64,000 bases of DNA from a virus. Its lineage: Duplodnaviria; Caudoviricetes. Both the position numbers and the translations under genes were made by a program. Below are positions 1 through 25,713 of the stretch, in pieces. The notes beneath the pieces were generated by a model. It was not told the DNA's origin. It did not search any database and saw nothing but the letters and a program-made list of their open reading frames with translations. Location of the stretch: positions 8,876-72,875 of IMG/VR virus record IMGVR_UViG_3300030372_002234; one strand, written 5' to 3'. Each line of letters begins with the position of its first letter. The stretch's first letter is position 1.

Positions 1-40
1 TATAGCTAAATCAGCTAAAAAAGCAAAGCACTTTAAAAGA

Positions 41-3000
41 ATGGTAAAACGTGCCCACGATGGTAAAACAGTAGGAAGATACAGAGCGGCATCAGCGGTA
101 GGAAAAACCTTACGTGGTATTGGAGAAGCTACTATGTTTAGTAGAAGACTCTTGCCAACACAGATTGTGTCTGAGCTTTTCTTCCCTAGTCTTAAATTTT
201 TGCGCCATTCAAGAGCTATGAAAAAAGGTGATGATGCTGCGGATGCCGCAACTTCATGGTGGAAATACTTAAAGAACGAAAATTACTTAGGCGATAGCGT
301 AGGTAGGAGAATGCTGCATAGATCTATTGGTGGAGCTATGGAAGGCGTTGTTTGGGGAAGCATTGAATACGGAGTTATGGAAGACTACCAAGATAGAACC
401 AACTCTCTTATTTTTGGTAACGATGCAGCAGCAGCCTTAGCTTTAGATCGTGACAGGTCAGGAGCTTACGGTCATATGCTTATGTTTGGTGTTGCATTTG
501 GTGGTTTAGGTGGCCCTCTTATTGGTGAAACCTTCACGCAAGTAGGTAAAATTCCTCAGGGAATGATGATCGGCGGAATGAAAATGAGCCAGTGGGCTGA
601 TCAGGTTCTTTCTCCGGGCGGTCAAGAAGCTATGGGATATGCTAAAGCACCGTTTGCTAAACGGTTTGGTGCTAGAATTGTACAGGGAACCGGAAATGCA
701 GTTACTTGGCTTGGCGGAGGAAACCAGTATAGCGTAGAACAGCAGTACTTAATGTATAAAGCATTAAGTAAAATTTCTCAAACAGAATTACTTAAGATGG
801 CAGAAGCTGATGATAACGGTGTTGCTATGACTAAAGTTCTTCAGGATATTGAAGACAGAATTTCTAAATATCAGTGGGCAGCTTCTGAGGCTGGCTTAGA
901 CATTAGAGAAGCTTTTAAAAGCGCAGAAGATGTTATGGATGGTAAACCAGAAAAGGAACGTACTTCCTCGGCGTTTATTAAACAAGTTGAAGATCACTTA
1001 GAAGGACAAGAAATTGCAGCTAGAGGTAAAGCTGGGTTTAGGTCTAGAGTTAGACAAGCCGTATTAGCCGAGTTCCAAGAAAGAATGAGATCAGGACAAG
1101 ATGTGGGTATTATGGAAAAGGCAATGGAAGAAGCTGACCCAAATAACCCGCCATCTGATCCAGAGGTTTCTAATTTAAATAAAACAGTTACAGATATTCA
1201 AGAAGAAAGTGCAAAAGTTAGCAAAGAACGAGAAGCTGTTGTTCAAGAACAAGCCAGAAGAAAAGAAGGATTAGAACCAGATGAACCAGCACGAACCCCA
1301 GAACAAATTGAAGGAGAGTTCGCTGAACAGGTAAAACTTCGAGACGAAGAAACTATTGCTGCTAAAACAGAAGAAAACAATAAAGCTAAGGCAGAGTTAA
1401 AAGAGCTTAATAAATCAAAACGTAAAGGCGTATCTAAAAAACAGTTTAAAAAAGACAATCCTCGTGTTGAAGAATTAGAAACTACCATTAGAGAAACTGA
1501 TAAATTTCTTGCAGATGCTGAAGAAGCTAAAAAAGTTTCTATTGAAGAAGCAGAAGCAAAGAAAAATGCAGAGCTTGAAGAAGCTAAAAAAGATCTTCAA
1601 AATCTTTCTGATGATGAGTTAACCGAAAGATTAAACGACTTAGATGTTATTTTAGGTGAAAGACTTTACGAACTTGAGTCAGAAGCATATGCTTACTGGC
1701 AGGCTAACCCTGAAAAGTTTGTTAAGTATATTGCTTACTTTAGAAAAAAGGTTTTAGAAGAACGTTTAAACGGAGATACTCCTAATGCTAACGGTATGCC
1801 TCCAATGTTTGCAGCTATTGATGGCTTAGAGGTAGACGGTGCTGTTAACATGATTCAACTTTTTGCTCCCGGTACTTATTTTACGAGAGATGAGTTAATT
1901 AGAGTTCGCAGGCAGTTAAAAACAGAAGACCAAAGATTTATTACTGCTGCTCTTGAAGGAAGTCAAGACGGGGAATTTGATCTTACAAAAGCTGAAGCAA
2001 GAGCTTTAACAACTAGAATTAAAGATATTTTAGTTGAAGAAGCAGTTAACAAAGATTATACTAGTGAAGAAATGCGTTTTATGAACGCTATTATTAATGA
2101 GCCTAGTGCCGAAACAATTGAAAAAGCGTTTGCTTCAACTCGGGTTGAAACCTATGTTAATAACATGATGATTGACGCGGCTAAAAACAATAAGGTTCTT
2201 ACGGCTGATGATCTTATGTTATACAACCAAGATCCTGAATTAGTTATTGAAACGTTTGTAAAGGCTAAACAAGATTTAGCCAAACTTATGGTTGAAGTAA
2301 GAGACGGTAATTATACTACTATTCTTAGAAGTCAAGGTAAGAATGTCTTAGATACTCTTGGTGAAGGAGTCGAGGGATATAAAAAATCAGGAAAAGGTAT
2401 TACTAACAAATGGAAAGCTGATTTCTTGGCTAAATACTTTAGCGAAAACGAAGAGTTTACTGCTACTAAGGCTGAGATGTTAGAAGTATTTGAGGTAAAC
2501 GATGAGTTTGTAGGACCAACTCTTCAGCAGCCCGCAAGAACCTCAGAACAAATGGATTTAGTCAAAGCCCGTATTAAAGATTTGCTTGAAGACGTTGTTA
2601 ACCAGCAAGCAGAAAAAATTAAAATGTCTGAAGTTAGGGCACGAAGAAAAAGAGCAGGTTACGCAAAACAAAGAGAAAAAACACAGAATGCTTACGCTAA
2701 ATGGTATGAGTCTAGTACTAAATTAAGTAATAAGACAAAAGCTGATCAAGATAAAGTTGTTTTCCAGAGAGCGCGTAATAAACTTAAAGAAATGCGTGAC
2801 TCTATTAACAAAGCGGTTGACGCTGAGTGGGAGAACGGTACTATCAAAGCTGATTGGATTGCCCGACAAAGCAAACGATTAGATGTACAGTATAGACCAA
2901 ACTTTGCTCACGCCCGTCCTCTTGTTAAAGTACTCTCTATGCTTCAGGCTCATTTGTTAGGCACTGCTCGATGGAAGCGTGATTCTCTTAGTGGGTTCTT

Positions 3001-6000
3001 TGTTGATACAACTATTACTAGAAAAGATTTAATTTCTATTTTAGAAACTGCTGAAGAGGGTTATGGGTTTATTGCAAACATCGATGAAATTGCTATTGGA
3101 GCAAGAGTAGGCGAAGGTTACGACGGTGAGAAAGTAATTCAGGCTCTTCTTACTAAACTCAAGTCCACTGATCAAACGTTAGGAAACGTACTTAGTGCTG
3201 GTTTTGAAAAGAACTTAGGTATTCATTTCGGTAAGAAGCTTCCCTACGCTACTGATGTATTTGGATCTAGAGGCGACTTACGAAACCTTATGACTTCTCT
3301 AAAGGGTCAGTTAGAAGGAAAGCAAGCTTATGCTAGAGGTAAAGCAGGAGCAGGAGAATACGCTGGTAATCGAGGAGATGGGAACATTGACGAGGCTACT
3401 TGGAATTCATCCTTTAACGAAGAGTTTATTACTCGTTTAGGTTACATTGCTACAGAAGGTAGTCAAAGAGCTAGAAATCTTCTTGCTGCTTTAGATGGAT
3501 TAAGTCCTGAAAAACAAATTGCTACAGCACTGAAATTTATTAACGAGTTTATTCCTGAAGGACAAAACAAACTAAAATCATTTAGTCAGTTAGGCGGAGG
3601 AACAGAAGCAATTGATTGGGTCGGACCAAAGAGAGCAGCACAAGCTGTCTTGTCGGCTCTGTCTACTGAACGACCGTATGCAAATAAGGTTGCTGAGTCT
3701 TACGTTGTCAAGGGAGAAAGAAACAGACCAGAACGCGCTAGAAGATTAAGTAATATCGATGAAGACGGTATCTATATTCAGCACGATTCTGATCCTATCA
3801 TCCAAAGAAACTACGAACGTGCTACGGCTGATCACGCAATGAACTGGCTTCTTAAGAAATTAGATAATCCTGATTTAGATGCAGAAGCTAGAAAAGATAT
3901 TTATAAAAAACTTCAGGCATGGCTCGAAAATTTCCCTGAACAAGCAGTACTTAATGATGCTGTAAGAGCGGCCCTTCCACAGCAAGGTCTTTCGTTTGTT
4001 CCTCGTTGGATGGTAACTGGTCCTGATGCTGATATCATCGGTAAAAACTTTGGTACAGGTATTGAAGGACAAATACAGTATAACTTAGCAATGTCAAAGG
4101 TTAATACTCCTGCTCTAATGGCTACTATTCACGACGCTATTTTTGTTGGTTTGCCGTCTATGATGACTAAATCAGGAGACGTTGCAGCTTCACCTAGTTG
4201 GAACTTTAAGGTAGGAGACGATCATGTCTTAAGAGGTATTGGATTTGGTTTCCAAACTTTAATTGCTCGTAAAGGTTCTTTTGAAGATGCCTTAAACCAT
4301 GTTCATCAGATTATGTATGGATACAAAGGTTTAGTGGAAGAAGCAAGAGCGTCTTATAACACAATGTCACAAAAAAGAGTAGAAGGTTTAACTGGAAAAA
4401 CTTTTGATACTAACGATGAGTTTGTGGGTTGGATGGCCCAAGAGTTTCCTAAATTAGATACCGCAAAAAAAGAAGCCATTATTAAAGAACTTTTCCCAGC
4501 ATTAGCAAGTTCTTATATGGACGCTGATTCTTCAGGATCAAACATTATGCTTGCTCTTGTGATGGGGCAAGATACTGATTTTGGTAACTTATGGAAAACT
4601 ATTAAAGAAGCTGATGAAGGTAATAAGGATGTCTATAACGAAGCGCACAGTGAAGCTGTTATTAACGCTTACAAGCATGTAGAAAGCTATGTACTGGAGC
4701 GAATCGAAAAAAGAGATTTTAACGGAAAAGCCGGTTTAGAAGAAGTTTATAACGATCTTGGTAAAGTTTTTACAGTACTTAAAGACGAAGGCTTATCTAA
4801 AGAAATCCTTAAAAGCCCAGTTATGACTGACTCTTACGGAATCGGTGTAGCAAAAATGAAAGAAAGCATTATTGAATCTTTCGGTAAACCTTCTGTTAAA
4901 GAAGAATTAATTAAAAGAGGTTTATTTACTGAAGAAGACTACGATGCTAAAATTTACCAGTTATCTGATACTTTAGCTACTTTGTTATCTAAAGGTGTTG
5001 ACTCTAAGTTAGGCGGTTGGATTAAACAAAGCTTATTCGCTAAAGGTGGTTTAGACAACAAAAAATTAGGGGAGATTTTAAATAACTGGAGAAGAACTGA
5101 AAGCGGACAAAGAGTTAGAACAGGAGACGAGCAAAGGTCTGTCGCAGATAGTAATAACTTTATGAGCGATATGACAAGCGGCAGTACTACGGCTAACTTT
5201 AAAGCTGGTAACTCTGAAGAAATTTCTATGTTTGATAACATGTTTGACGAGGTTACACGGCAAATTTCAGTGTTAGCTGAGATTACTGGTGATGTTGAAT
5301 CAGCTAAAGCTCACGTAAACAACTTAGTTAATTTAATTACTGATGACCTTAAAGGTGATAAAAACGTTGAAAAATTAATGGCTGAAGGTAAGTTTGCTGA
5401 AGCTCAGAGAGAAATTGACATTGCTTTTAATAAAATGTCAGAAGAAAGTGTTATGGTTAAAGCACTGAACAGCTACATGGCTCAGGGTTATGGGTTTGAT
5501 GAAACAGCCTTTAGAGGACAGCTTGAAGCTATCTTAGGTAAAGGCAAAGCAGATACAATAAATCAAATCTTAGGTCGTTTAAATCCTCTTGCTAGACAGG
5601 CTATGAAGGGCCAGATGTTTAGGCAGTTAGCTATTTCGGCTGAAACTCGAAACTTTGTTAAAAACAACTTTGATCAAATCGCTGATAAAATTCTTCGACT
5701 GCAAGCAGAAGAATCTCCTCTTGGTCTTGGTAAGCTTGTTATGGAACCGTTGAGCGAAGAAGACATTAGACAGCGTACTATTCTACAGGCCGTTAAAGAA
5801 CTATCAGAAATTTACGACTTAGAAAAATTAGAATTAGAAGTTGGTGGCGAAAGATTTAAAAATCTTACTTGGGAAGATTACTTTAAGCAGTGGGAAAAAG
5901 ATAGCGGAACTGGTTTAGAAATTAGAGCAGCAGCTATAGATGCGTTTAAAAATGTTCGTTGGAAAGCAATGTTAGATGAAATCGATCAGCGTCTTGCTGA

Positions 6001-9000
6001 AAACAAAGAATCTAACGACGCTGAAGTCATGTCTTTAGAGATGCAGAAAGAAGCTATCGAACAAACAATGAAGATGCTTGCTCGTATTATTGATGCTACT
6101 AACGAAGGAAGACCTACGGACGCTGCTAAGAGATTAGAATTAGTTACTGAAAGCCGTAACGTGGTTAATACGGGTAGTATGCCCGGACTCTTAGGCGCAC
6201 TTCCTCAGACTACTACTCGTAGATTTGAAGGCGCACCTATTCCAATTCTTAGAATGGCACAGCTTGAACAAACTGCTGAAGTTAAACAGTTAAGATCGTT
6301 AGAAAGAGGCGCACAGCAGGCTGATACAACCAAAGCAGTATTCAGTGATGCTGAGTTATCTCGTCCTCTTAGTCCTGAAGATCTTGCTGACGTTCAGACT
6401 TACAAGGGATCTATGTATGATGTCCCCTTAGCTTCTAAGCCTATTTACGGTTTGCAGGATAGTCCATCACCATTTATTGCAGCAGAGTTATTACAAGCTG
6501 AATTAACTAACTTTGCTAATCAGGTAGGGGGAGTAGCTAAAAAATATCTTAGTGAGGGTAATTTCTTTAAACTCTATAATACACATAGGCATTATGTTGC
6601 CGCCCAAGAAGCGATGAAAGCTGATACTGTTTATCGTGATATTGCTAAAAGCTTGTCAGAAAAACGTGAACAGCTTCTAAAGGATCGCCCGACATCTGAT
6701 GCTTTGGATACGGAGTCTTTTCTTAATCAGTCGGAAGACTATGTTAATCTTAAGTTAGAATTAGACAAAGCACAAGATAATGCTCTTATGGTTAGAAACG
6801 AAGTTTTAGCTATTGATGGATCATGGGCTAAAGACGTAGAAGAAAGAGCTTGGTCTATTATGTCTATGTCAGGAGAAACGTTAGAAACTGTATCTAACGG
6901 AAGAACTTGGGGAGAAGCCGTTAATAAAACGGCATTAGATAACCAACGATCTGGTAACATGATTGCATGGTTAGCCCCTCCTGCTAAAACTCCGGGTGAG
7001 GTAATTCTTGATGGTAGTAATACTGCAAAACTTCGTTATGAAGATAAATCAGAAACAGCTATGTTACCGCGTTCTGCACACTCTGTAGATGCATCGGCTG
7101 GTTTGTACATGAGTAACTATATTCAAGTTACTGGTTGGTTTGAAGGACTTAAAAGCATCCTTAAAAGAGAGCCTACTAGTAGAGAGATTACTGTTTTTGC
7201 TCGATGGGCAGACGCTAAAGCACGTTTTGATGTTGATGAACAGAATAAACTTTTATCTAATTTTGGAAAAGAAATTGCTCCCTATAAAGATTTAACTGAA
7301 AAACAATTAACAGATATTATGGGTAGGGGGCAGGATATTGCTGCTCAAAACTTTAGAGACGCTAACAACGCAATAGCCTATATGGCTAAACCCGTAATTA
7401 GAGAACAAGTTAAAGAATCCCTCAAAGCCCAACTTGGAGATGATTTTGAAGCTAAAGTTGCAGAAAGAACCGGCGGGTTAACTCTTGAAGAATTAATGAA
7501 TTTTAAACGAAAGTTAACTGACGAGAACACTACAATCTTTGTAAACCCCTTGGGAGTTGTTATTGCTCCTCACAAGGTAGTTGGAGATGGTATTGTTAAT
7601 CTGACTATGCAAGAAAGAGTTTTAGCTTTACAGGGAATTCAAAATCAAACTGTTGTTGATCGCATGAGACTAGCTACAATGTTTGATAGAAAACTTCCTA
7701 TGAACTCAGAGCTTTCATCTCGAATGGGTGGATACGATCCGTTTACTAAGTTTAATGGAATGACTATTGATAAAGCCAGAAGGAACGCTGCTGTATTAAC
7801 CGATGCCTTAGAAGTTTTACAGGGAAGAAGATCTACAGAAAAACTCAGTGTTGCTATTGATAGACGTAACGTTGTTAGAAGAGGTACTTTAACTGAAGCT
7901 CCCATGAAGTTTGTTAAATTTTCTAATGAAATAAACGAAGAAGGAGCTAAAGACGCTAGGATGTTGTTAGCAGAAAATACTTTAGAAATGCTTCCTTTAT
8001 CTGAAGACTCATTAAAGAAAATTAATGCTCTTAGAAATACTTTTGATCCTTACGACGAAGCTGACTGGGCTAACGGTATTCAAGTTGCTATGATGGTTAG
8101 TAAAGACTCCGCTTATAACGTGTTTAAACAAAGAGTATTAGCTGAAGAAAGACTTTCAGCTAGGTCTAGAGATTCTAACCCAGACGAGTTTAATAAACAG
8201 TTTGATGCACGGTGGGAAAAAGTTAAACCAATTGTTGACGAGTTAAGAAATGAATTAAATATTCTTAATAGAGATAGCGACGTTGTTTCTAATTTCTTAA
8301 ACAGAAACGATGTCTTCTTTGGTGAAACAGCTATTGATTCTACTACCCATGAAACTTTTAACAGTCTGTATTCTCAGAAAATTAAGATTGAGCAAGCTGT
8401 TCAAATGGAATTATTGAATAGAACTCTTGTTCCTGATAACACTTCGTTTGACCGAGAAGTTCAGTTTATTAAACCAATGGCTGATCTAAATGGTATTATC
8501 CCTAGATCTGACGGTACTCAACTTAAGCCTAACACTATTGATGCTCGTATTCAGGATTACCCAAAAACAGACGGTCACTTGATGTTAACGCATCGTTTAG
8601 ATACGTTTGTTAATACTGGTATTTTAAATAAAGATCAAGCGTCTGTTCTTAAATTAGCTTTTTGGAATTATGATACTGAAGCATTAGGTAAGATTTTTGA
8701 CCCAATGAAAACAGATAGTCCTTTACGATTTGATGTTCTTGATGGTGTCGATTATATGGGTAAATACGAACAACTTAATAAAGCATTTACAGATGGAGTT
8801 GTACACAGAATTGGGCTTCTAAGAAATATGTCAAGTAAATTTGATGATCCTAGTTCTTTAGGTCCGGCTGCTGTTGTTCTTGAAGAAATTGGACATGCTC
8901 TGGGTCATAAATTAGATTCTGATACTCAGATTAACTTTATTGAACGTGTTAAGAAAATTGAGATGGCTACAATTGAAGAAGCTGAAAAACTTCTTTATGG

Positions 9001-12000
9001 CGAAGGTGGTCCAAAGAATAAAAAACGTCTTGAACAATTAAGAGAAGATTTTAGACGTATTAAAGATATGGAAATTCCAGAAAACGCTGCCAAACGTACT
9101 GAGTTGTTTGGTGCTATGTTTGCTCTTAGTGGCTTACATAAAGCTAAAAATCAGTGGGATACTATTACTGACGGTGCTGCAACACAGACCGCTTTGTCTG
9201 ACGCTCACTCTATTATTAAAAGTCTTGGTAAATTAGCTGATATTTCTGGCGTTGATGCTGATACCTTAAACGGTAAAAGCTTATTTACTGGTGTTGAAGA
9301 AACAATAAGATCTTCTATTAACTTAGACGTTAGATTAAACAAAAGATCTCAGCCAACAGATGAAAACCGTTTAGACGAAAACCACGGGCCTCGACATGTT
9401 GATGTTGATGTTGCAAAACGAAACGAAGACATTAGAAGAGCTAAGGTTGAAAAAGAAACTGACGATCTTATTGAACAAATCAGAGATCCAAGAACAGGTC
9501 AAGTTGATATTTCTCTTCTCGGTAACGCTGACAAAATGAGTGTTACTGTAAGAGATACGATTATTCTTCGTGTTATGGAAGACCACGTTAAACGATCTAC
9601 TTCAGGATCAAGAGTTGATACGCCTTTTTCTTCTTACCTGTCTGCAATGGCCTTTGGTAAATTAACTCCTAATCAAGTAGCTAGATACGGTGAGCTATTG
9701 TCTAGCCCGTTTGGTATGAGGCAGTTTGCTTTTGCTACTGATGGTGAAATTCCGTTAACTGCCGCAGTTGAGCATTTGTTTAACGGTGCTGATTCTCAAA
9801 GTTACTTTACTACTGGTGCTTTCCAAGACGCTATGCCTACAATTCAAGGATTGGGTCTATACTTAAGAGGTGAGTTTGAGAAAGTTATCCCAGCACTTGC
9901 TCTTCTTAAAGGACAAAACATGACCAAAGGACCGCTTGGACCTACCGGAGGAGAAACTACTCCGTGGTCCTTGTACTCTACTTTGTGGCGTGAAATGGTT
10001 ATGGACTATCAAGGTAAAGATAGAGCTAAAGAAGTATTAGTAAACAAGCTTAAATCAATGAAAGATAACGATCCTGATTTTGTTAAATTCTTAGGAAACA
10101 AAAAGAAATCAGATGAGTTTTTAGATATTATGGCTGACACTGCTGATTCTTGGGCTAATCCAAAAGAAGGTTTGTGGGCAAGTATTGTAGATTCTATGGT
10201 TCAGGCTGGAATGGTTAAAGAATCTAAACGAAACGATTTAATTGCTAATGCTGCTTATCCCATTAAGTTTAAGGACAGTATCTTTAAAAATATGACGGAT
10301 ATTGACGGCGATACTCCTAGAAGAGAACTTAGAAGAGCTATGGTAGACATAGTTAGAGGAAGGATGGAACACTCCGAAGATGTCGATATTGATATTCTTC
10401 AAATCGCATTAGCTGACGTATTACCAAGCCCGTCTGAAAGAAGAGGCAAGAATCTTGAAACGTATATTAACAATCTTCCTAACGAAATTCAAGCTTTATT
10501 AAAAACTCCTGAAATTAAAGGTAACATTGATGTGTTACTCGGGAAAATTAGAAGGGGAGACATTACTCTTAAAGATTTAGGAGATGACGTAAGAACTAGG
10601 TATATGGATACTCTTAAAAGCGATGATTTAGTTGGTAACGAAGATCCTCGTAAAAAAGCAATGCTTCTTGAGTTGTCTGAAGAGTTTAGAAATAAATTAG
10701 CTAAATCTCAAAAGACCTCTACTTTAGACTTACAGCCTACAACGGCTGCTGAGTTTGTGGCTAATCGTTATATGAATAACATTGGTTCATCCAGTTATTC
10801 GTTTGCTGGTGATGCTTTCTTATCCCCTAAACAACTTTGGGAAGACCCACGTATTGCTAAGTTCTTAGAAGATGATCCTATTTCTCTTTTAGATTCTGTT
10901 AAACGAGGTACTGCTGCTCAAGCTTTCGATAGAGCTACTTACAGTAATTACTTTGGTATTAAAGGTTTTGGAATGAAAGATCTTATTGAGCTTTACAAAA
11001 AAGCGGCTAATGGCGAAAACACTCACCATGAGTTTAATATGATGTTTATGACTAAAGATATGACTTTAGATGAGCATAAACGAACAATGACTCACGATGA
11101 GCGTCAGAAGTTTAAAGCGGGTATTGATCACATTGACAGCATGTACAAATACTCAGTAGGTACTTTATCTACTCTTGATAACCCTCATGCTGCTCCTTTC
11201 TTAAGTATTATTAACGTTATTAGTGAGTTAGGTACAGCTTTATCTATCGCCCCTCGTCTTGCTATTGCAACGGCTATCGAAGAAACGCCTATGTCTATCG
11301 GCAGCGTTCTTAAAGATAACTTGTTGGGAGCTAAGAGAGAAATGCAAGATGTTCTCGCTATAGCTAAAAGCACTAAAGATATTCATGAAACCTTAGAGGG
11401 TTTAGGCCATATTACATCTTCTGTTATGCACCAAGCAGCAGCCCTTGCGGCTAAAATGGGTGATGACGGTTCAGGATCATACGGCGTTACAGATAAAAAG
11501 AAAATTAAACAAATCTACAAATTCTTGTCTACTGGTATGAACAAACAGGTTATGGCAGCACGAAGTTTAGGTGCCATGCAGTACGTTCATAGATTAGATA
11601 GTATTTTCTCTAATATTGCGGGAGATATCTCAATTAAAGCAGAAGATACAGCTAGAGGCAAGAGCATGTCGTTTATGCGTCAAGGCACTGGAGGTTTCCA
11701 CGTTAACGCAGATGAAATTTACTTAAGATTACAAGAACAATTTGACGGTGACTTTACTAATATCACTTTAGATGAATTTAAGAAAACAACTAAAGAATTA
11801 GGAATTGATGAAGAAATTTCAAGAGATATTTTAGAGGCTGTTAAAATGGGCTTGTTTGAAGAAGACAAATACCAGTTCTTTAGAAACATGTGGGTTGAAA
11901 ATCGTGAGCAAATTTTAAGAACGGGAGTTCCTTTTGATAAATTACGATTAAAAATTACGGCTGATTACGATCAACACGTAAGAGCAGGTAAAGATGGAGA

Positions 12001-12889
12001 TGCTGTGCGAACTAGAAAACTACAAGCTTTGAACGCTATTAGAGAGCTTGTGTTTACTGCTTCCACTAAGTTTGCTAAACAGCCCTCATTAAGTACTCAG
12101 CCTTTAGGGGCTAGAAACGCTGGTGTGTTGGCTACCTTCTTTACACGCCTTACAACCTATGCTTCGTCTTCTGCTAATACCTTAAGAAGAGCTATGTTTG
12201 TTGGTCCGTCTACGTTTGCTGCTGCCTTTACTGCTCACATGATTACGGGATGGTTATACTATAAGCTTATTCAGCTTCAGGGTTTCCGTACTATCGAAGA
12301 AATGAAGAGAGAATTACAAAAAGACCCAATGGGTGAATTAACTGATGCTGTAATGTCTGTTCCGTTCCTTGGAGCTAACCAAATGGTTATCAGTATGCTT
12401 CTTCAGATGATGCGCGGAGAACGACCTGTGAACTCCAAGCCTTACGATATTGCTGCTCTTAATGCGGCTAACACTCTCTTACAGTTACCCGTAAGAGTTA
12501 CAAAAGCTGTTCAAGATATTATTAACGGTGATTGGGAAAAAGGAACGGCTAACCTTGCCCAAAGAATGCCTGTTCCCCATGCGTGGGCCTTAGCTATTGC
12601 TTTAAGAAATGCCGGAGCATTTGAAAAGGACGTTCAAATTGGTAGGCTTAGTCCTAAGTATAGAGGACAACTTAAACCACAGCCTATCCAACCTCCTGCT
12701 AGATCTGAAGTTACTAAGAACCCAATTAATACATCTGTATTAGAACCTCAGGTTGAAGTAGGTAAACCTCAGGTAACTCCTGAGCATACCAACCCAGAGA
12801 CAGGTATGACAACTCCTTCATCTGTAGAAGAAGACAGAGTTGGAGAACTTTTAAAAGAATTAGAAAGTAAAGGGTTTGAACCAGTGTAA
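41..12889 (+). CDS. Giant internal virion (ejection) protein, T7 gp16-like C-terminus, carrying an embedded single-subunit RNA polymerase domain; 5'-truncated by the window
   Basis: 4282-aa ORF whose frame stays open back to nt 2, so the true start is upstream of the window. RNAP motifs: IHDAIF (aa 1363-1368), DADSSG (aa 1494), KDVY (aa 1529-1532), KEILKSPVMTDSYG (aa 1587-1600). Degenerate zincin-like LEEIGHALGH at aa ~2947. The helical C-terminus with GVLATFFTRLTTY resembles the end of podovirus ejection proteins. Confidence 0.8.
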   Translation: MVKRAHDGKTVGRYRAASAVGKTLRGIGEATMFSRRLLPTQIVSELFFPSLKFLRHSRAMKKGDDAADAATSWWKYLKNENYLGDSVGRRMLHRSIGGAMEGVVWGSIEYGVMEDYQDRTNSLIFGNDAAAALALDRDRSGAYGHMLMFGVAFGGLGGPLIGETFTQVGKIPQGMMIGGMKMSQWADQVLSPGGQEAMGYAKAPFAKRFGARIVQGTGNAVTWLGGGNQYSVEQQYLMYKALSKISQTELLKMAEADDNGVAMTKVLQDIEDRISKYQWAASEAGLDIREAFKSAEDVMDGKPEKERTSSAFIKQVEDHLEGQEIAARGKAGFRSRVRQAVLAEFQERMRSGQDVGIMEKAMEEADPNNPPSDPEVSNLNKTVTDIQEESAKVSKEREAVVQEQARRKEGLEPDEPARTPEQIEGEFAEQVKLRDEETIAAKTEENNKAKAELKELNKSKRKGVSKKQFKKDNPRVEELETTIRETDKFLADAEEAKKVSIEEAEAKKNAELEEAKKDLQNLSDDELTERLNDLDVILGERLYELESEAYAYWQANPEKFVKYIAYFRKKVLEERLNGDTPNANGMPPMFAAIDGLEVDGAVNMIQLFAPGTYFTRDELIRVRRQLKTEDQRFITAALEGSQDGEFDLTKAEARALTTRIKDILVEEAVNKDYTSEEMRFMNAIINEPSAETIEKAFASTRVETYVNNMMIDAAKNNKVLTADDLMLYNQDPELVIETFVKAKQDLAKLMVEVRDGNYTTILRSQGKNVLDTLGEGVEGYKKSGKGITNKWKADFLAKYFSENEEFTATKAEMLEVFEVNDEFVGPTLQQPARTSEQMDLVKARIKDLLEDVVNQQAEKIKMSEVRARRKRAGYAKQREKTQNAYAKWYESSTKLSNKTKADQDKVVFQRARNKLKEMRDSINKAVDAEWENGTIKADWIARQSKRLDVQYRPNFAHARPLVKVLSMLQAHLLGTARWKRDSLSGFFVDTTITRKDLISILETAEEGYGFIANIDEIAIGARVGEGYDGEKVIQALLTKLKSTDQTLGNVLSAGFEKNLGIHFGKKLPYATDVFGSRGDLRNLMTSLKGQLEGKQAYARGKAGAGEYAGNRGDGNIDEATWNSSFNEEFITRLGYIATEGSQRARNLLAALDGLSPEKQIATALKFINEFIPEGQNKLKSFSQLGGGTEAIDWVGPKRAAQAVLSALSTERPYANKVAESYVVKGERNRPERARRLSNIDEDGIYIQHDSDPIIQRNYERATADHAMNWLLKKLDNPDLDAEARKDIYKKLQAWLENFPEQAVLNDAVRAALPQQGLSFVPRWMVTGPDADIIGKNFGTGIEGQIQYNLAMSKVNTPALMATIHDAIFVGLPSMMTKSGDVAASPSWNFKVGDDHVLRGIGFGFQTLIARKGSFEDALNHVHQIMYGYKGLVEEARASYNTMSQKRVEGLTGKTFDTNDEFVGWMAQEFPKLDTAKKEAIIKELFPALASSYMDADSSGSNIMLALVMGQDTDFGNLWKTIKEADEGNKDVYNEAHSEAVINAYKHVESYVLERIEKRDFNGKAGLEEVYNDLGKVFTVLKDEGLSKEILKSPVMTDSYGIGVAKMKESIIESFGKPSVKEELIKRGLFTEEDYDAKIYQLSDTLATLLSKGVDSKLGGWIKQSLFAKGGLDNKKLGEILNNWRRTESGQRVRTGDEQRSVADSNNFMSDMTSGSTTANFKAGNSEEISMFDNMFDEVTRQISVLAEITGDVESAKAHVNNLVNLITDDLKGDKNVEKLMAEGKFAEAQREIDIAFNKMSEESVMVKALNSYMAQGYGFDETAFRGQLEAILGKGKADTINQILGRLNPLARQAMKGQMFRQLAISAETRNFVKNNFDQIADKILRLQAEESPLGLGKLVMEPLSEEDIRQRTILQAVKELSEIYDLEKLELEVGGERFKNLTWEDYFKQWEKDSGTGLEIRAAAIDAFKNVRWKAMLDEIDQRLAENKESNDAEVMSLEMQKEAIEQTMKMLARIIDATNEGRPTDAAKRLELVTESRNVVNTGSMPGLLGALPQTTTRRFEGAPIPILRMAQLEQTAEVKQLRSLERGAQQADTTKAVFSDAELSRPLSPEDLADVQTYKGSMYDVPLASKPIYGLQDSPSPFIAAELLQAELTNFANQVGGVAKKYLSEGNFFKLYNTHRHYVAAQEAMKADTVYRDIAKSLSEKREQLLKDRPTSDALDTESFLNQSEDYVNLKLELDKAQDNALMVRNEVLAIDGSWAKDVEERAWSIMSMSGETLETVSNGRTWGEAVNKTALDNQRSGNMIAWLAPPAKTPGEVILDGSNTAKLRYEDKSETAMLPRSAHSVDASAGLYMSNYIQVTGWFEGLKSILKREPTSREITVFARWADAKARFDVDEQNKLLSNFGKEIAPYKDLTEKQLTDIMGRGQDIAAQNFRDANNAIAYMAKPVIREQVKESLKAQLGDDFEAKVAERTGGLTLEELMNFKRKLTDENTTIFVNPLGVVIAPHKVVGDGIVNLTMQERVLALQGIQNQTVVDRMRLATMFDRKLPMNSELSSRMGGYDPFTKFNGMTIDKARRNAAVLTDALEVLQGRRSTEKLSVAIDRRNVVRRGTLTEAPMKFVKFSNEINEEGAKDARMLLAENTLEMLPLSEDSLKKINALRNTFDPYDEADWANGIQVAMMVSKDSAYNVFKQRVLAEERLSARSRDSNPDEFNKQFDARWEKVKPIVDELRNELNILNRDSDVVSNFLNRNDVFFGETAIDSTTHETFNSLYSQKIKIEQAVQMELLNRTLVPDNTSFDREVQFIKPMADLNGIIPRSDGTQLKPNTIDARIQDYPKTDGHLMLTHRLDTFVNTGILNKDQASVLKLAFWNYDTEALGKIFDPMKTDSPLRFDVLDGVDYMGKYEQLNKAFTDGVVHRIGLLRNMSSKFDDPSSLGPAAVVLEEIGHALGHKLDSDTQINFIERVKKIEMATIEEAEKLLYGEGGPKNKKRLEQLREDFRRIKDMEIPENAAKRTELFGAMFALSGLHKAKNQWDTITDGAATQTALSDAHSIIKSLGKLADISGVDADTLNGKSLFTGVEETIRSSINLDVRLNKRSQPTDENRLDENHGPRHVDVDVAKRNEDIRRAKVEKETDDLIEQIRDPRTGQVDISLLGNADKMSVTVRDTIILRVMEDHVKRSTSGSRVDTPFSSYLSAMAFGKLTPNQVARYGELLSSPFGMRQFAFATDGEIPLTAAVEHLFNGADSQSYFTTGAFQDAMPTIQGLGLYLRGEFEKVIPALALLKGQNMTKGPLGPTGGETTPWSLYSTLWREMVMDYQGKDRAKEVLVNKLKSMKDNDPDFVKFLGNKKKSDEFLDIMADTADSWANPKEGLWASIVDSMVQAGMVKESKRNDLIANAAYPIKFKDSIFKNMTDIDGDTPRRELRRAMVDIVRGRMEHSEDVDIDILQIALADVLPSPSERRGKNLETYINNLPNEIQALLKTPEIKGNIDVLLGKIRRGDITLKDLGDDVRTRYMDTLKSDDLVGNEDPRKKAMLLELSEEFRNKLAKSQKTSTLDLQPTTAAEFVANRYMNNIGSSSYSFAGDAFLSPKQLWEDPRIAKFLEDDPISLLDSVKRGTAAQAFDRATYSNYFGIKGFGMKDLIELYKKAANGENTHHEFNMMFMTKDMTLDEHKRTMTHDERQKFKAGIDHIDSMYKYSVGTLSTLDNPHAAPFLSIINVISELGTALSIAPRLAIATAIEETPMSIGSVLKDNLLGAKREMQDVLAIAKSTKDIHETLEGLGHITSSVMHQAAALAAKMGDDGSGSYGVTDKKKIKQIYKFLSTGMNKQVMAARSLGAMQYVHRLDSIFSNIAGDISIKAEDTARGKSMSFMRQGTGGFHVNADEIYLRLQEQFDGDFTNITLDEFKKTTKELGIDEEISRDILEAVKMGLFEEDKYQFFRNMWVENREQILRTGVPFDKLRLKITADYDQHVRAGKDGDAVRTRKLQALNAIRELVFTASTKFAKQPSLSTQPLGARNAGVLATFFTRLTTYASSSANTLRRAMFVGPSTFAAAFTAHMITGWLYYKLIQLQGFRTIEEMKRELQKDPMGELTDAVMSVPFLGANQMVISMLLQMMRGERPVNSKPYDIAALNAANTLLQLPVRVTKAVQDIINGDWEKGTANLAQRMPVPHAWALAIALRNAGAFEKDVQIGRLSPKYRGQLKPQPIQPPARSEVTKNPINTSVLEPQVEVGKPQVTPEHTNPETGMTTPSSVEEDRVGELLKELESKGFEPV

Positions 12890-14441: not shown

Positions 14442-14519
14442 ACTCGACTGAGCGAGTATAAACAGCCATTAGGCTCAGTGCGTCGGGCTGTACCCATAAC
14501 TGGGTACGGCTCGGGTTGG
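14442..14519 (+). ncRNA. Pistol self-cleaving ribozyme (copy 1)
   Basis: P1 ACTCG/CGAGT; loop ACTGAG pseudoknots with CTCAGT; conserved ATAAACAG, TTAGG and GCG; P2 CCA/TGG; 14-bp P3; G-T cleavage dinucleotide at 14515-14516. Confidence 0.9.
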
Positions 14520-14525
14520 ATTTTG

Positions 14526-23036: not shown

Positions 23037-23231
23037 ATGTACGGTAAAGGCGATAAATACAGAGACGTTGATAAGAAAAAGTACGATGAACAGTATGAAA
23101 AGATTTTTGGAAAGAAAAAATTTAACATCATGAGTGACAAGGAGTCCAATGACAGTATGGGAAACGTACACAAAAGAAGAAAAGACAAGGCTAACAAATC
23201 TTCAGTTAGCAAACGAAGACAAAGCCGCTAA
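23037..23231 (+). CDS. Small basic hypothetical protein
   Basis: AAGGAG SD; GKGDKYRDVDKKKYDEQYEKIFGK motif typical of small phage ORFs; overlaps the RNAP start. Confidence 0.55.
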   Translation: MYGKGDKYRDVDKKKYDEQYEKIFGKKKFNIMSDKESNDSMGNVHKRRKDKANKSSVSKRRQSR

Positions 23232-25713
23232 ACAGTCTATTGCAAAGTATCTTAACAATGTTAACATGTCCCCTAGTGCTTCTCCAAGAGAAAAGGAATT
23301 TGTATTTGACTATACAGAATACCTTAGTGATTACATTAAGTGGACAGAAGAGCAGTACGAAAAAGTAAAGAAGAAGCCTTATTGGCTTACTATTGCTCAT
23401 TTGTTAGGTGCTGAACGTTGTGCTGCTATTGTTGTTAAAGCTTTACTTGATAGTTGCTTATCGTCTCGTTTGATACAAGCATCAGACGGCATTAAATACG
23501 ATAACTATAACTTAGGAGACTTAAGATCCCAGACTAAACAAAATATACTTGGAGTTATATCAAGAGAACTGTGGCTTGCTATTGGCATACGCTTGGCTAA
23601 AGAAAACTACGGCGAAGAGTTTGCCCGACAGTCTCATTACTTCAAGAACTGGAACAAAAAGAGAATGAAAGCGTTTGCACGTAAGTGTCAAACGTTGCCT
23701 ACATGGGATAACCAAAAAAGAAATGTGGTTGCCTTATCGTTTTATACTTTAATGGTAGGAAACAAAGAAAGCGTTATGCCCTTTGTTGAGAATCCTATTA
23801 CTATTGTAAAGAACGGTCAGATTAAAAGACATACTATTATCTCCTTGCGAGAAGAGTTTACGAAAAACTTTGAGGCATTTCATAATTTCTACCAATACTA
23901 TAAGTGGTTGTATTACCCGATGGTGTGCCCACCTATTCCTCACAACTATCCTAACAGGACAGCAGAGGACTGGGGTGGTGCTTTACATCTAGAGTACAGG
24001 AAGTCATCTGTTCATAACACAAGAGCAGGTAATTACTACAAGAACAATAGTGAGCATAGCCAGCAGTCAATCAATGCGCTTAATGCATTGCAAGGTACTG
24101 AATGGAGCATCAACAAAAGAGTTCTTGAAGTAATGACAAACCTGTACAAGTCTAATCGACAGGTGTGTAACCTACCTCCTTATGAGCACGATGAGTTTGT
24201 GTTTAGCAAACCTTTCCCTGAAGGGGAAGAAAAAGAAGTAATAGCTAAATGGAAAAACGAACGGGCGGAAGCTTGGGGTCTATGGGAAAAGACTAAGCAA
24301 AAGAGAATGCAAATGGAAATGCGTTTGCTTATTGCTGATGATCTTAAAGACCTGACGTTTTGGCACGGCTATTCTTCTGACTTCAGAGGCAGATGCTATA
24401 CGCAGTCATCGTTTCTATCTCCTCAGAGTGGTGACTTTGACTGCGGCATAATCCAGTTTGCTGAAGGTGCTAAACTAGAAGCAAATGAAGTTAAAGAAAA
24501 ATGTGATTACTTTTGGTTAAAGGTTCACTTAGCTAATAGGTGGGACTTTGATAAAGCTTCTTTTGAAGAACGTGCTCAATGGGTAGATGATAATATTGAT
24601 ATGCTTCGTCAAGTGTACGAAGACCCTGAAGGTACTGTAGACCTCTGGAAAGATGACAAAGCTAAAAAGAATGTGTCATTCAGACGGCTGGCTGATACTA
24701 TTGATTTCTTTGTTGCTTTAGAAACAGGTTACTCGTATGTTCCTAAGAATCTCGATGGAACATGCAACGGTATTCAACATTGGGTTGGTACGACAAAAGC
24801 TGAAAACTTAGCTGAACTTGTCAATGTTATTAAAACTCTTAAACCGGGTGACATGTATAAGTTTATTGCTCATAACGCTACTGCAAAAATGGAAGCAGAG
24901 CGTGATGCCAATCAATACTTTGATATGTTTTTAACCCATTGGGAGCATACAGAAAAAGACAAGAAGATGCCAAGGGGGCTACCTAAAAGAACTGTAATGT
25001 GCGACCCCTACGGGGTTACGTTCTACAGCGCAAGGCAGTACATTCGATCTGAAGGACATCTTGACTGGTGCAGACCATTGCTCGAAGAGCGTGGCCTAAG
25101 CTGGCAGGGAGCCATCATGGAATGTACGTCAGTAATTTGGGAAGCACTGCAAGAAGCATTGATCTTACCTAATGAAGCTAAAGAATACATTAAAGATTGT
25201 GTTGAAGTTTGTTACAACAGTGATGACCGGAAGAAAAAGCCACTCCAATGGACAACTCCTTCTGGATTTAAAGTCAGGCAATATTATACAGAACATATAG
25301 AATATATTACTGATATTGCTTTACTGCTAAAGAATGATGTACGCATCAGATCTACGGCAGAAATGTGGCAGTTTACTGACAACATGGACGTTAGGAAAAT
25401 GGCTACTGCTATTCCTCCTAATTGGGTTCATTCAATTGATGCTGCTCATATGGTATTTGTGGTACTCGCTTTGCTAGTTATGGGTTGCAGAAACTTCTGT
25501 ATGATCCATGACAGCTTCGGCGTACCCGTCACTTACCTAAAGTATTTACCACGTATATCAAGGGAAACATTTTATGAAATTCACAAAGAAAGCCAACTCG
25601 AACTATTTAAACAAGACCTCGAAAACTTTTCCGGTCACGAACTCCCAGACATTCCTGAACAAGGTGGCCTCATTCCAGAAGAAATTCTCGAATCTGAATA
25701 TCTCTTCTGCTGA
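23149..25713 (+). CDS. T7-like single-subunit DNA-directed RNA polymerase
   Basis: DFRGRCY, motif A DGTCNGIQH, motif B RGLPKRTVMCDPYG, PPNWVHSIDAA and motif C MIHDSF in canonical order; ATG at 23149 after AAGGAG. Confidence 0.97.
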   Translation: MTVWETYTKEEKTRLTNLQLANEDKAAKQSIAKYLNNVNMSPSASPREKEFVFDYTEYLSDYIKWTEEQYEKVKKKPYWLTIAHLLGAERCAAIVVKALLDSCLSSRLIQASDGIKYDNYNLGDLRSQTKQNILGVISRELWLAIGIRLAKENYGEEFARQSHYFKNWNKKRMKAFARKCQTLPTWDNQKRNVVALSFYTLMVGNKESVMPFVENPITIVKNGQIKRHTIISLREEFTKNFEAFHNFYQYYKWLYYPMVCPPIPHNYPNRTAEDWGGALHLEYRKSSVHNTRAGNYYKNNSEHSQQSINALNALQGTEWSINKRVLEVMTNLYKSNRQVCNLPPYEHDEFVFSKPFPEGEEKEVIAKWKNERAEAWGLWEKTKQKRMQMEMRLLIADDLKDLTFWHGYSSDFRGRCYTQSSFLSPQSGDFDCGIIQFAEGAKLEANEVKEKCDYFWLKVHLANRWDFDKASFEERAQWVDDNIDMLRQVYEDPEGTVDLWKDDKAKKNVSFRRLADTIDFFVALETGYSYVPKNLDGTCNGIQHWVGTTKAENLAELVNVIKTLKPGDMYKFIAHNATAKMEAERDANQYFDMFLTHWEHTEKDKKMPRGLPKRTVMCDPYGVTFYSARQYIRSEGHLDWCRPLLEERGLSWQGAIMECTSVIWEALQEALILPNEAKEYIKDCVEVCYNSDDRKKKPLQWTTPSGFKVRQYYTEHIEYITDIALLLKNDVRIRSTAEMWQFTDNMDVRKMATAIPPNWVHSIDAAHMVFVVLALLVMGCRNFCMIHDSFGVPVTYLKYLPRISRETFYEIHKESQLELFKQDLENFSGHELPDIPEQGGLIPEEILESEYLFC

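What the first reader, a model, noticed from the sequence alone, without database searches (positions are those of the whole stretch)
4040..4845. Apparently circularly permuted T7/N4-type RNA polymerase core inside the giant virion protein
Seen in sequence: the >4282-aa internal virion protein has motif A DADSSG (D1494), a DVY element 36 aa later, and motif B K-x3-K-x2-VMT-x2-YG (K1591, Y1599, G1600). The D-to-K spacing is 97 aa. A motif C block, KNFGTGIEGQI...MATIHDAIFVG (E1342, D1365; 23 aa apart), lies 129 aa BEFORE motif A. Established: in T7 RNAP the order is A (D537), DIY (569-571), B (K631/Y639/G640), PNFVHSQDG (D787), C (D812), with 94 aa from D537 to K631 and 25 aa from D787 to D812. 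The ordinary RNAP of this genome has 24 aa there (PNWVHSIDAA...MIHDSF). Inference: this is an injected virion RNA polymerase, conceptually like N4 vRNAP, but with a C-A-B permuted palm, fused to a gp16-like ejection protein, in a T7-like phage that also has a normal RNAP. I do not know a described example of this arrangement.
Basis: partly seen in the sequence, partly recalled or inferred. Interest (0 to 1): 0.95.

Follow-up and report, generated by a model that had tools for sequence, protein, structure and literature searches.

The report
Polymerase core inside giant phage protein
A 4,719-residue, cysteine-free protein in the ejection-protein slot of an uncultured marine T7-like phage carries a very diverged T7-type RNA polymerase core whose third catalytic motif seems to lie before the other two, so this phage probably has a second, possibly injected, polymerase besides its normal one.

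Summary
Motif A (D1494), motif B (K/R1587, K1591, M1595, Y1599) and T-I-H-D (H1364, D1365) are invariant in about 20 homologues that share only 21-65% identity. The A-B/fingers part is related to T7-type RNA polymerases on four grounds:
- Pfam RNA_pol, E 2.8e-5 in a whole-genome search.
- Profile-profile comparison, E 1e-7 to 5e-6.
- Protein language-model neighbours.
- T7 and mitochondrial RNAP as the two best structural matches (Z 9.0 and 8.9; next 5.1).

Two details fail. The 'DVY' and 'KNFGTGIEGQ' elements are not conserved; the conserved tyrosine is Y1544. The ORF is also longer than stated: 4,719 aa, starting upstream of the window.

The C-A-B permutation is neither shown nor refuted. 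Both AlphaFold models are unreliable in the palm. The motif C profile match is marginal (score 28 against nulls of 24-25). No conventional motif C exists downstream.

An ejected role is inferred from three things: conserved small-medium-giant gene order after the terminase, zero cysteines as in N4 vRNAP, and a sister phage whose syntenic giant shares both ends but lacks the polymerase core. I class it as a new variant of the virion RNA polymerase theme.

The parts
1..12889 (+). Giant ORF, window part (aa 438-4719 of a 4,719-aa protein, P0002). The true start is upstream of the window at G000:C1:7605. P0001 numbering counts from the ATG at window nt 41.
   Evidence: Zero Cys in 4,719 aa. Homologues of 3,971-4,714 aa.
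3998..5080 (+). RNA-polymerase-like core as delimited here (aa 1320-1680): C-like motif, Gly-rich strand, motif A, fingers with motif B.
   Evidence: Invariant columns; hhalign; ESM neighbours; a variable, gap-rich linker follows at about aa 1680-1730.
3998..4027 (+). VPRWMVTGPD (aa 1320-1329, P1321 invariant): candidate counterpart of T7 PNFVHSQD.
   Evidence: hhalign places aa 1320-1366 on RNAP 760-794, score 26.7-28.3, E 0.012-0.13; marginal.
4109..4153 (+). Motif C-like PALMATIHDAIFVGL (aa 1357-1371): P1357, H1364 and D1365 invariant, with a hydrophobic-HD-hydrophobic pattern as in T7 FALIHDSFG.
   Evidence: It is the best RNAP hit for three overlapping 60-aa windows (E 0.04-0.07). Its structure is not resolved.
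4232..4279 (+). [RK]GxGFGF...T..AR.GS (aa 1398-1413; G1399, G1403 invariant): possible T/DxxGR-type palm strand.
   Evidence: A low-confidence collinear hhalign pairing with DFRGR. ESM neighbours of aa 1305-1485 include N4 vRNAP_dom_2, the T/DxxGR region. Inconclusive.
4517..4552 (+). Motif A, MDADSSGSNIML (aa 1493-1504): D1494, A1495, D1496 and G1499 invariant. The D-to-G spacing of 5 matches T7 D537-G542 and N4 D559-G564.
   Evidence: The mitochondrial RNAP structural alignment starts at aa 1498 against POLRMT residue 925.
4664..5038 (+). Fingers subdomain (aa 1542-1666), including Y1544 (T7 Y571 position) and GGWIKQSLF.
   Evidence: VIA-align: T7 RNAP 3e2e_A Z 9.0, rmsd 3.1 over 101 aa, onto T7 569-689; mtRNAP 9mn4_E Z 8.9. 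An independent model gave mtRNAP Z 8.1. pLDDT is 78-88 here.
4799..4846 (+). Motif B, KEILKSPVMTDSYGIG (aa 1587-1602): [KR]-x3-K-x3-M-T-x2-Y-G, with the same spacing as T7 R627/K631/M635/T636/Y639/G640.
   Evidence: Pfam RNA_pol profile positions 117-187, E 2.8e-5 genome-wide. hhalign E 2.5e-9 for the 60-aa window.
7064..7096 (+). LPRSAHSVDAS (aa 2342-2352): a semi-conserved look-alike of T7 PNFVHSQDG, about 750 aa after motif B, with no HD hairpin after it.
Evidence: hhalign score 22-23, within the null range.
23134..25713 (+). Canonical T7-type RNA polymerase of the same phage (859 aa), motifs in the normal A-B-C order.
   Evidence: PF00940 E 6.5e-64; T7 RNAP 1aro E 7e-45.

Best explanation
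The gene encodes the largest member of a three-gene ejection (internal virion) module: 255 aa, 1,524 aa and 4,719 aa, all cysteine-free, placed after the terminase. The phage is an uncultured marine T7-like phage of about 72 kb. The conserved N- and C-terminal modules are shared with a sister lineage. Between them, this lineage carries a strongly diverged single-subunit RNA polymerase core of the T7/mitochondrial/N4 type. Shown: motif A, motif B, the R/K-x3-K NTP-binding pair, the rNTP-selecting Tyr position and the fingers fold are present and under strong purifying selection. Inferred: the enzyme is active, and its second catalytic aspartate is D1365 of the invariant T-I-H-D element, 129 aa upstream of motif A. 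This gives a C-A-B motif order, analogous to the relocated motif C hairpin of birnavirus and permutotetravirus RdRps. Inferred by analogy with N4/DEV vRNAP, which occupies the gp16 slot: the protein is packaged, ejected with the DNA, and transcribes and/or helps pull in the early region that starts right after its own gene. The canonical RNAP, encoded 10 kb further on, would then take over.
For: RNAP relationship:
- Pfam RNA_pol hits 3 of 13 family members, best E 4.1e-5. In a six-frame scan of the genome the only hits are the canonical RNAP and the giant ORF, aa 1536-1627, E 2.8e-5, with none in 14 control genomes.
- hhalign of the family profile against 112 T7-like RNAPs gives E 5e-6 for the whole region, 1.4e-7 for the A-B piece and 2.5e-9 for the motif B window.
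- The family profile finds a sister phage's canonical RNAP at motif B, E 1.9e-4.
- The ten nearest ESM feature neighbours are all RNA_pol or N4 vRNAP clusters, score 0.92.
- The two best of 48,161 PDB chains are T7 RNAP (Z 9.0) and human mtRNAP (Z 8.9), against 5.1 for the next. This was reproduced on a second model, Z 8.1.

Selection on catalytic positions: H1364, D1365, D1494, D1496, G1499, Y1544, K1591, M1595 and Y1599 are among 32 invariant columns of about 1,700, at 21-65% identity.

C-like motif upstream:
- It is the second-best local profile alignment to RNAP, and it falls exactly on PNWVHSID...IHDS.
- It beats all 24 decoy windows, 26.7 against at most 23.2.
- Downstream, the only other invariant Asp is D2265, in a polar W-x-x-D context.

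Ejection role:
- The order terminase, 163 aa, about 255 aa, about 1,000-1,500 aa, giant, then early genes is conserved in relatives.
- There are 0 Cys in 255 + 1,524 + 4,719 aa, against 2% (189 of 9,464) in other proteins of this phage. N4 vRNAP also has 0 of 3,500.
- The sister phage's syntenic 3,582-aa giant matches the N end (E 2.4e-8) and the C end (E 3.6e-6) but lacks every polymerase motif.
- In DEV/N4 the vRNAP is the gp16-equivalent ejection protein (PMC10925440).
Against: - The palm could not be modelled. pLDDT is below 50 at motifs A and C in both AlphaFold2 runs, which draw them as helices. So D1365-D1494 proximity is untested.
- The motif C profile match is marginal: score 28.3 against reversed-profile nulls of 24.9 and 23.6.
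- Pfam RNA_pol reports no motif C stretch in the giant ORF.
- Motif A alone is not picked up by profile comparison.
- The Pfam score, 15.9-17.9 bits, is under the 22-bit cut-off.
- There is no detectable match to the N4 vRNAP Pfam domains or to RPOL_N.
- A profile search of PDB sequences finds nothing.
- TIHD could instead be the first strand of the T/DxxGR hairpin. ESM neighbours of that piece point to the N4 T/DxxGR domain rather than the motif C domain.
- No proteomic, expression or activity data exist; every relative is a metagenomic contig.
Confidence: 0.5

Rival explanations
1. The domain derives from an RNAP and keeps the canonical order, but has lost motif C. It would be a catalytically dead or repurposed fingers/palm remnant, for example an NTP- or nucleic-acid-binding module of the ejectosome. 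T-I-H-D would be the strand preceding the T/DxxGR-type Gly-rich strand, kept for structural reasons.
For: - Canonical Pol A enzymes and RNAPs have an h-H-x-h or P-[HY]-N-x-D strand just before T/DxxGR (own knowledge of these families).
- ESM neighbours of aa 1305-1485 carry N4 vRNAP_dom_2, which covers N4 mini-vRNAP 327-443, the T/DxxGR region, and not the motif C domain.
- The motif C profile signal is marginal.
Against: - Invariance of D1494, K/R1587, K1591 and Y1599 over 21-65% identity is what an active NTP-polymerising site predicts.
- HD is invariant, and in canonical enzymes that upstream strand carries no invariant HD.
- 33-45 variable residues separate HD from the Gly-rich strand, against 4-8 in canonical hairpins (the canonical spacing is own knowledge).
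Confidence: 0.2
2. The order is canonical, but an insertion of about 650-750 aa follows the fingers. The true C-terminal palm module would lie far downstream, around LPRSAHSVDAS (2342-2352) or W2262-x-x-D2265, as N4 vRNAP already stretches B to C to 273 aa.
For: - aa 2334-2358 aligns to RNAP 753-776, the PNWVHSIDA region, at 37% identity over 19 aa, as the third-best local alignment.
- D2265 is invariant.
- In N4 mini-vRNAP, motif B Y678 and motif C D951 are 273 aa apart.
Against: - The score of 22-23 is within the null range.
- No conserved hydrophobic-D-hydrophobic hairpin follows HSVDA. The Asp about 40 aa later is absent in 6 of 14 members.
- D2265 sits in a polar, helix-like context.
- His2348 is Q or F in many members.
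Confidence: 0.1
3. The polymerase core is real, but the protein is not packaged or injected. It would be a late-expressed intracellular enzyme or scaffold, and its gene order only mimics an ejection operon.
For: No virion proteomics exist. No Pfam or PHROG family for internal virion proteins matches the 255-aa, 1,524-aa or giant proteins.
Against: - The genome has no other candidates for the gp14/15/16 functions that T7-like podoviruses need.
- Strict absence of Cys from all three proteins, against a 2% background, matches N4 vRNAP.
- Small-medium-giant order is conserved, as in T7 and DEV (PMC10925440).
Confidence: 0.12
4. The motif resemblance is chance in a very long protein, and there is no polymerase-related domain.
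For: A 4,719-aa protein offers many chances for short motif matches.
Against: Four independent lines agree: HMM, profile-profile, language-model features and structural top hits in two models. The invariant columns also coincide with catalytic positions.
Confidence: 0.02

Closest known systems
Bacteriophage N4 virion RNA polymerase gp50 and its Schitoviridae homologues (e.g. DEV gp71)
   Same: Both are giant (3,400-3,500 aa) cysteine-free proteins with a central, highly diverged T7-type RNAP core between N- and C-terminal modules. Both are the last and largest gene of a gp14/gp15/gp16-like ejection operon (PMC10925440). Both phages also encode a further T7-like RNAP.
   Different: No detectable sequence membership: the N4 Pfam domains PF21769, PF21894, PF21624 and PF21867 are absent, and hhalign reaches only E 0.04 at motif B. 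N4 has the canonical order T/DxxGR-A-B-C (R424, D559, K670/Y678, D951), whereas here the only HD candidate precedes motif A. The host phage is T7-like (portal, capsid, tube, nozzle, terminase and a single-chain 859-aa RNAP), not N4-like.
T7 RNA polymerase / mitochondrial RNA polymerase family (Pfam PF00940)
   Same: Motif A D-x4-G; motif B R/K-x3-K-x3-M-T-x2-Y-G with identical spacing; Tyr at the T7 Y571 position; fingers fold (Z 9.0 and 8.9); 97 against 94 aa between the motif A Asp and the motif B Lys.
   Different: The score is below the Pfam gathering cut-off, 17.9 against 22 bits. No RPOL_N domain is detected. No motif C follows motif B. The T/DxxGR arginine is not clearly present. The core is embedded in a 4,719-aa protein.
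T7 gp16 (with gp14 and gp15), the ejectosome proteins
   Same: Small-medium-large gene order in the late region; inferred role in crossing the envelope and DNA internalisation; no other candidates in the genome.
   Different: No sequence or Pfam similarity and no transglycosylase domain detected. The module lies after the terminase rather than before the tail fibre. It is 3.6 times larger.
Birnavirus and permutotetravirus RNA-dependent RNA polymerases (C-A-B permuted palm)
   Same: A right-hand polymerase in which the motif C element lies upstream of motifs A and B in the sequence (precedent: PMC4666646, seen).
   Different: These belong to a different polymerase superfamily (RdRp, not Pol A/T7 type). 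Their permutation is proven by crystal structures; here it rests on motif order and conservation only.
crAss-like phage virion RNA polymerase (phi14:2 gp66)
   Same: A giant virion-packaged, ejected RNA polymerase of a podovirus (own knowledge).
   Different: It is a two-barrel (multisubunit-type) catalytic core, unrelated to the T7-type motifs found here.

Membership tests
Single-subunit T7/mitochondrial-type RNAP (PF00940) | HMM score at or above the Pfam gathering cut-off (22 bits) | tested here: not met
   15.9-17.9 bits for this protein; E 2.8e-5 genome-wide; best family member E 4.1e-5. This is a significant relationship but not formal membership.
Single-subunit T7/mitochondrial-type RNAP (PF00940) | Motif A catalytic Asp followed by Gly at +5 | tested here: met
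   D1494 and G1499 are invariant in all homologues. T7 D537/G542 and N4 D559/G564 have the same spacing (T7 numbering from own knowledge).
Single-subunit T7/mitochondrial-type RNAP (PF00940) | Motif B on the O-helix: R/K-x3-K-x7-Y-G | tested here: met
   K/R1587, K1591, M1595 and Y1599 are conserved or invariant; hhalign E 2.5e-9; helix with pLDDT 78-88.
Single-subunit T7/mitochondrial-type RNAP (PF00940) | Fingers subdomain fold | tested here: met
   T7 RNAP Z 9.0 (rmsd 3.1, 101 aa) and mtRNAP Z 8.9 rank 1-2 of 48,161 chains, with the next at 5.1. Repeated on model 1, Z 8.1.
Single-subunit T7/mitochondrial-type RNAP (PF00940) | Motif C (h-h-H-D-h-h hairpin) located after motif B | tested here: not met
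   No conserved HD or acidic hairpin exists downstream. The only such element is upstream, at aa 1357-1371.
Single-subunit T7/mitochondrial-type RNAP (PF00940) | T/DxxGR motif before motif A | tested here: inconclusive
   The candidates [RK]G-x-GFGF (1398-1404) and T-x-x-A-R (1406-1410) are conserved, but only low-confidence alignments support them.
Single-subunit T7/mitochondrial-type RNAP (PF00940) | Palm with the two catalytic Asp side by side | tested here: inconclusive
   Both AlphaFold2 models have pLDDT below 50 at motifs A and C.
N4-type virion RNA polymerase (Schitoviridae gp50) | Sequence membership (Pfam vRNAP_dom, vRNAP_dom_2, N4_RNAP_helical, vRNAP_plug) | tested here: not met
   None of these families matches P0001 or any of 13 family members. 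N4 itself matches all four.
N4-type virion RNA polymerase (Schitoviridae gp50) | Giant cysteine-free protein with a central RNAP core between terminal modules, in the gp16 slot of an ejection operon | tested here: met
   0 Cys in 4,719 aa, and 0 in N4's 3,500. Order 255-1,524-4,719 aa. The terminal modules are shared with a sister giant that lacks the core.
N4-type virion RNA polymerase (Schitoviridae gp50) | Present in virions, injected, transcribes early genes | not testable with these tools
   All relatives are metagenomic contigs.
Permuted-palm polymerases (C-A-B order) | Motif C element upstream of A and B in the sequence, conserved across the family | tested here: met
   The order T[IV]HD, then DAD..G, then K...M..Y holds in all of about 20 homologues.
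Permuted-palm polymerases (C-A-B order) | The upstream element occupies the motif C position in three dimensions | tested here: inconclusive
   The models are unreliable there. The profile match to RNAP motif C is marginal.
T7 gp16-type internal virion protein | Sequence or domain similarity (e.g. an N-terminal transglycosylase) | tested here: not met
   No Pfam or PHROG hit over the whole protein, including the N-terminal 465 aa.

The most novel reading that the evidence does not exclude
This would be the first member of the Pol A/T7 RNA polymerase superfamily with a relocated motif C (C-A-B order). The enzyme would be active and built into the gp16-slot ejection protein of T7-like phages, so that these phages inject one single-subunit RNAP and then synthesise a second, canonical one. 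That would be an N4-like strategy arisen independently inside a T7-like lineage.
Probability: 0.4. Interest if true: 0.9.

Novelty: new variant of a known kind. Interest (0 to 1): 0.74.

Why it matters
Virion-packaged T7-type RNA polymerases are known only from N4-like phages. T7-like phages are the textbook case of depending on host RNAP until their own enzyme is made. A conserved, apparently active polymerase core in the ejection protein of a T7-like lineage would have three consequences.
- It would show that the 'inject your own polymerase' strategy arose, or was transferred, outside Schitoviridae.
- It would link transcription to the ejectosome in a second phage group.
- If the C-A-B order is real, it would give the first topological rearrangement of the palm in the Pol A/T7 superfamily, parallel to the one in birnavirus RdRps. 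That bears on polymerase evolution and on engineering single-subunit RNAPs.

The sister lineage, whose syntenic giant lacks the core, offers a natural comparison with and without the polymerase.

Tried and rejected
- AlphaFold2 of aa 1101-2200 (13-row alignment): mean pLDDT 61, core below 50. Foldseek of that model against the PDB gave nothing under E 0.19.
- AlphaFold2 of aa 1231-1700 (18 rows): mean pLDDT 55, palm below 50. So the D1365-D1494 distance test could not be done.
- Complex prediction with the C piece (aa 1312-1445) as partner of the A-B piece (aa 1446-1680), plus Mg and ATP: 'no answer', score 0.00. This counts neither for nor against.
- phmmer and profile hmmsearch of the region against PDB sequences: no polymerase hit.
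- tblastn of aa 1001-2400 against 50,697 phage records: no match.
- PHROGs on the giant and its neighbours: nothing.
- Pfam on the isolated C pieces of 10 members: no RNA_pol hit.
- hhalign against a single N4 mini-vRNAP sequence: E 0.04 at motif B only. The N4 homologue search returned only relatives above 70% identity, too uniform for a useful profile, so none was built.
- An N4-style hairpin promoter upstream of the repeated 10-mer: strong hairpins at only 2 of 6 copies, and one of those is the pistol ribozyme stem.
- Four literature searches found no description of a permuted T7-type RNAP, or of a vRNAP domain in a T7-like phage. Much of the subscription literature is not covered.
Full report
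**Setting.** The window is bases 8876-72875 of a 72,875-bp viral contig. The contig's first bases recur at position 71,714, so the genome is a circularly assembled molecule of about 71.7 kb. It is a T7-like podovirus. It has a canonical 859-aa T7-type RNAP (PF00940 E 6.5e-64; T7 RNAP E 7e-45), a primase-helicase, Pol A, RNR, portal, scaffold, capsid, tail tube A, an 1,804-aa nozzle and a T7-type terminase. The portal is only about 35% identical to cultured Autographiviridae. All relatives are marine or metagenomic contigs.

**The ORF.** The giant ORF does not start at window nt 41. It is open 437 codons further upstream and encodes 4,719 aa. It follows the terminase, a 163-aa ORF, a 255-aa ORF and a 1,524-aa ORF, and is followed directly by the early region.

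**Observation.**
- I collected about 20 distinct homologues of 3,971-4,714 aa, at 21-65% identity over aa 1101-2200.
- In a 14-sequence alignment of aa 901-2600, only 32 of about 1,700 columns are invariant. They include H1364-D1365, D1494-A-D1496, G1499, Y1544, K1591, M1595 and Y1599 (repeated with 13, 18 and 20 sequences).
- Motif B reproduces the T7 spacing R627-x3-K631-x3-M635-T636-x2-Y639-G640 exactly, as [KR]1587-x3-K1591-x3-M1595-T-x2-Y1599-G.
- Motif A keeps the Asp-to-Gly(+5) spacing of T7 and N4.
'DVY' 1530-1532 varies freely; the conserved Tyr is Y1544, which profile and structural alignments place on T7 Y571. 'KNFGTGIEGQ' is also not conserved.

**Is it an RNA polymerase relative?** For the motif A-B/fingers part, yes, by four independent routes.
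1. Pfam RNA_pol matches aa 1536-1627. A six-frame scan of the whole genome finds only the canonical RNAP and this site (E 2.8e-5), with no hit in 14 control genomes. Three of 13 family members hit, the best at E 4.1e-5.
2. hhalign of the family profile against 112 T7-like RNAPs gives E 5e-6, or 1.4e-7 for the A-B piece alone and 2.5e-9 for the motif B window. Conversely, the family profile finds a sister phage's canonical RNAP at motif B, E 1.9e-4.
3. The ten nearest ESM Atlas clusters for aa 1300-1800 are all RNA_pol or N4 vRNAP clusters, score 0.92.
4. The AlphaFold2 models are poor overall, but the fingers (aa ~1540-1666) are confident (pLDDT 78-88). An exhaustive structural scan puts T7 RNAP (Z 9.0, rmsd 3.1, 101 aa, onto T7 569-689) and human mitochondrial RNAP (Z 8.9) first and second of 48,161 chains, with the next at 5.1. 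The other model again puts mtRNAP first, Z 8.1.

Formal Pfam membership is not met (17.9 against 22 bits), and no N4 vRNAP Pfam domain matches.

**The permutation question.**

In favour:
- T-[IV]-H-D is invariant and sits in a hydrophobic-HD-hydrophobic context like T7 FALIHDSFG.
- aa 1320-1366 is the second-best local alignment to the RNAP profile, and it lands exactly on PNWVHSID...IHDS (RNAP 760-794).
- As an isolated piece it scores 26.7 (E 0.012), above all 24 decoy windows from the same protein, whose maximum is 23.2.
- Downstream of motif B there is no conserved acidic hairpin. The only other invariant Asp is D2265, in a polar W-x-x-D context.

Against, or unresolved:
- Reversed-profile nulls reach 23.6-24.9, so 28.3 is only marginal.
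- Pfam sees no motif C stretch.
- Both AlphaFold2 runs fail at motifs A and C (pLDDT below 50, drawn as helices).
- ESM neighbours of the C piece alone point to RNAP-like fragments, but through N4 vRNAP_dom_2, which is the T/DxxGR palm segment and not the motif C domain.
- A semi-conserved LPRSAHSVDAS at aa 2342-2352 resembles PNFVHSQDG, but it scores within the null range and is not followed by an HD hairpin.

My reading is that a relocated motif C hairpin (C-A-B, as in birnavirus and permutotetravirus RdRps; PMC4666646) is the best single explanation, at about 50%. The main rivals are a canonical-order remnant without motif C (about 20%) and a far-downstream C module (about 10%).

**Is it an ejected virion protein?** This is inferred, not shown.
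- The order small (255 aa), medium (1,524 aa), giant is conserved in relatives. It mirrors gp14-gp15-gp16 of T7 and gp73-gp72-gp71 (vRNAP) of the N4-like phage DEV (PMC10925440).
- All three proteins contain no cysteine in 6,498 residues, whereas twelve other proteins of this phage average 2.0% (189 of 9,464). N4 vRNAP also has none in 3,500 residues.
- No other gp14/15/16 candidates exist in the genome.
- A complete 66-kb sister phage (RNAP about 35% identical) has the same layout, with a 1,324-aa cysteine-free protein and a 3,582-aa giant. That giant is homologous to this family at its N-terminal (E 2.4e-8) and C-terminal (E 3.6e-6) modules but has none of the polymerase motifs.

So the polymerase core is a clade-specific insert in, or a loss from, a conserved terminal scaffold. 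This is the same tripartite logic as N4 vRNAP.

**Mechanism proposed.** Steps marked (i) are inferred. The protein is packaged with its two partners (i) and ejected through the tail (i). Its central core polymerises RNA using D1494 and D1365 with two metals, K/R1587 and K1591 on the NTP phosphates, and Y1599 for ribose selection (i, from invariant positions). It transcribes the early region that begins immediately after its own gene, which may also help DNA entry (i). The canonical RNAP, encoded 10 kb downstream, is then made. One candidate signal is an exact 10-mer, TCCACTATCA, whose core recalls the CACTAT of T7-group promoters. It occurs six times, always on the + strand: four copies in the early region, one before the tRNA/RNAP block and one before the late genes. 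It recurs in the early regions of relatives. Which polymerase reads it, if either does, is unknown. A consistent N4-style hairpin is not present.

**Novelty and score.** I found no description of a T7-type RNAP core in the ejection protein of a T7-like phage, nor of a permuted T7/Pol A-type palm (subscription literature is poorly covered). I class it as a new variant of a known kind (virion RNAP). The permuted-palm reading is a possible step beyond that, at probability about 0.4.

Noticed in passing
window 14528, 14873, 15877, 16528, 22492, 35631 (all + strand); also L001 25491/26534/27154, L007 22983/24118/24419/24774, L003 17656, L005 17357: The exact 10-mer TCCACTATCA occurs six times, about 0.1 expected. 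Most copies lie 20-30 nt before an SD+ATG in the early region, and the element is conserved in the early regions of distant relatives. Its CACTAT core recalls T7-group promoters. It could be a phage RNAP promoter or an RNA processing signal.
   Followed up: partly
window 14442-14520 and 15647-15697 (+): Two pistol ribozymes pass the Rfam gathering score of 34.5 (65.4 and 49.2 bits), in intergenic gaps of the early operon. The first ends 8 nt before a TCCACTATCA copy.
   Followed up: partly
window 26260-26835 (+): A 191-aa protein with Sigma-70 region 4 (PF04545, E 6.8e-6) lies about 550 nt after the canonical RNAP gene. A metallophosphoesterase follows at 26828-27487.
   Followed up: no
window 50679-57350 (+): A 2,223-aa late protein with 102 cysteines (4.6%) and no Pfam or PHROG match, in sharp contrast to the cysteine-free trio. 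It is probably an extracellular tail or fibre component.
   Followed up: no
window 22161-22233, 22858-22931, 22935-23021 (+): Three tRNA genes (Lys-TTT, Arg-TCT, Leu-TAA) lie just upstream of the canonical RNAP gene.
   Followed up: yes
G001 (IMG/VR contig, 66,041 bp), 28303-32274 and 32316-43061: A sister T7-like phage has the same post-terminase module, with a 1,324-aa cysteine-free protein and a 3,582-aa giant. The giant shares the N- and C-terminal modules but has no polymerase motifs.
   Followed up: yes
G000:C1 1-1161 versus 71714-72875: The contig ends overlap by about 1.16 kb, so the terminase gene appears twice. The record is a circularly permuted assembly of about 71.7 kb, and the window's last ORF (62875-63999) is the terminase, cut by the contig end.
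   Followed up: yes
window 42888-48302 (+): The nozzle protein is 1,804 aa, but only its last ~500 aa match the Pfam nozzle family. The N-terminal 1,300 aa carry internal DNA repeats (D1, 44306-45005) and are unexplained.
   Followed up: no
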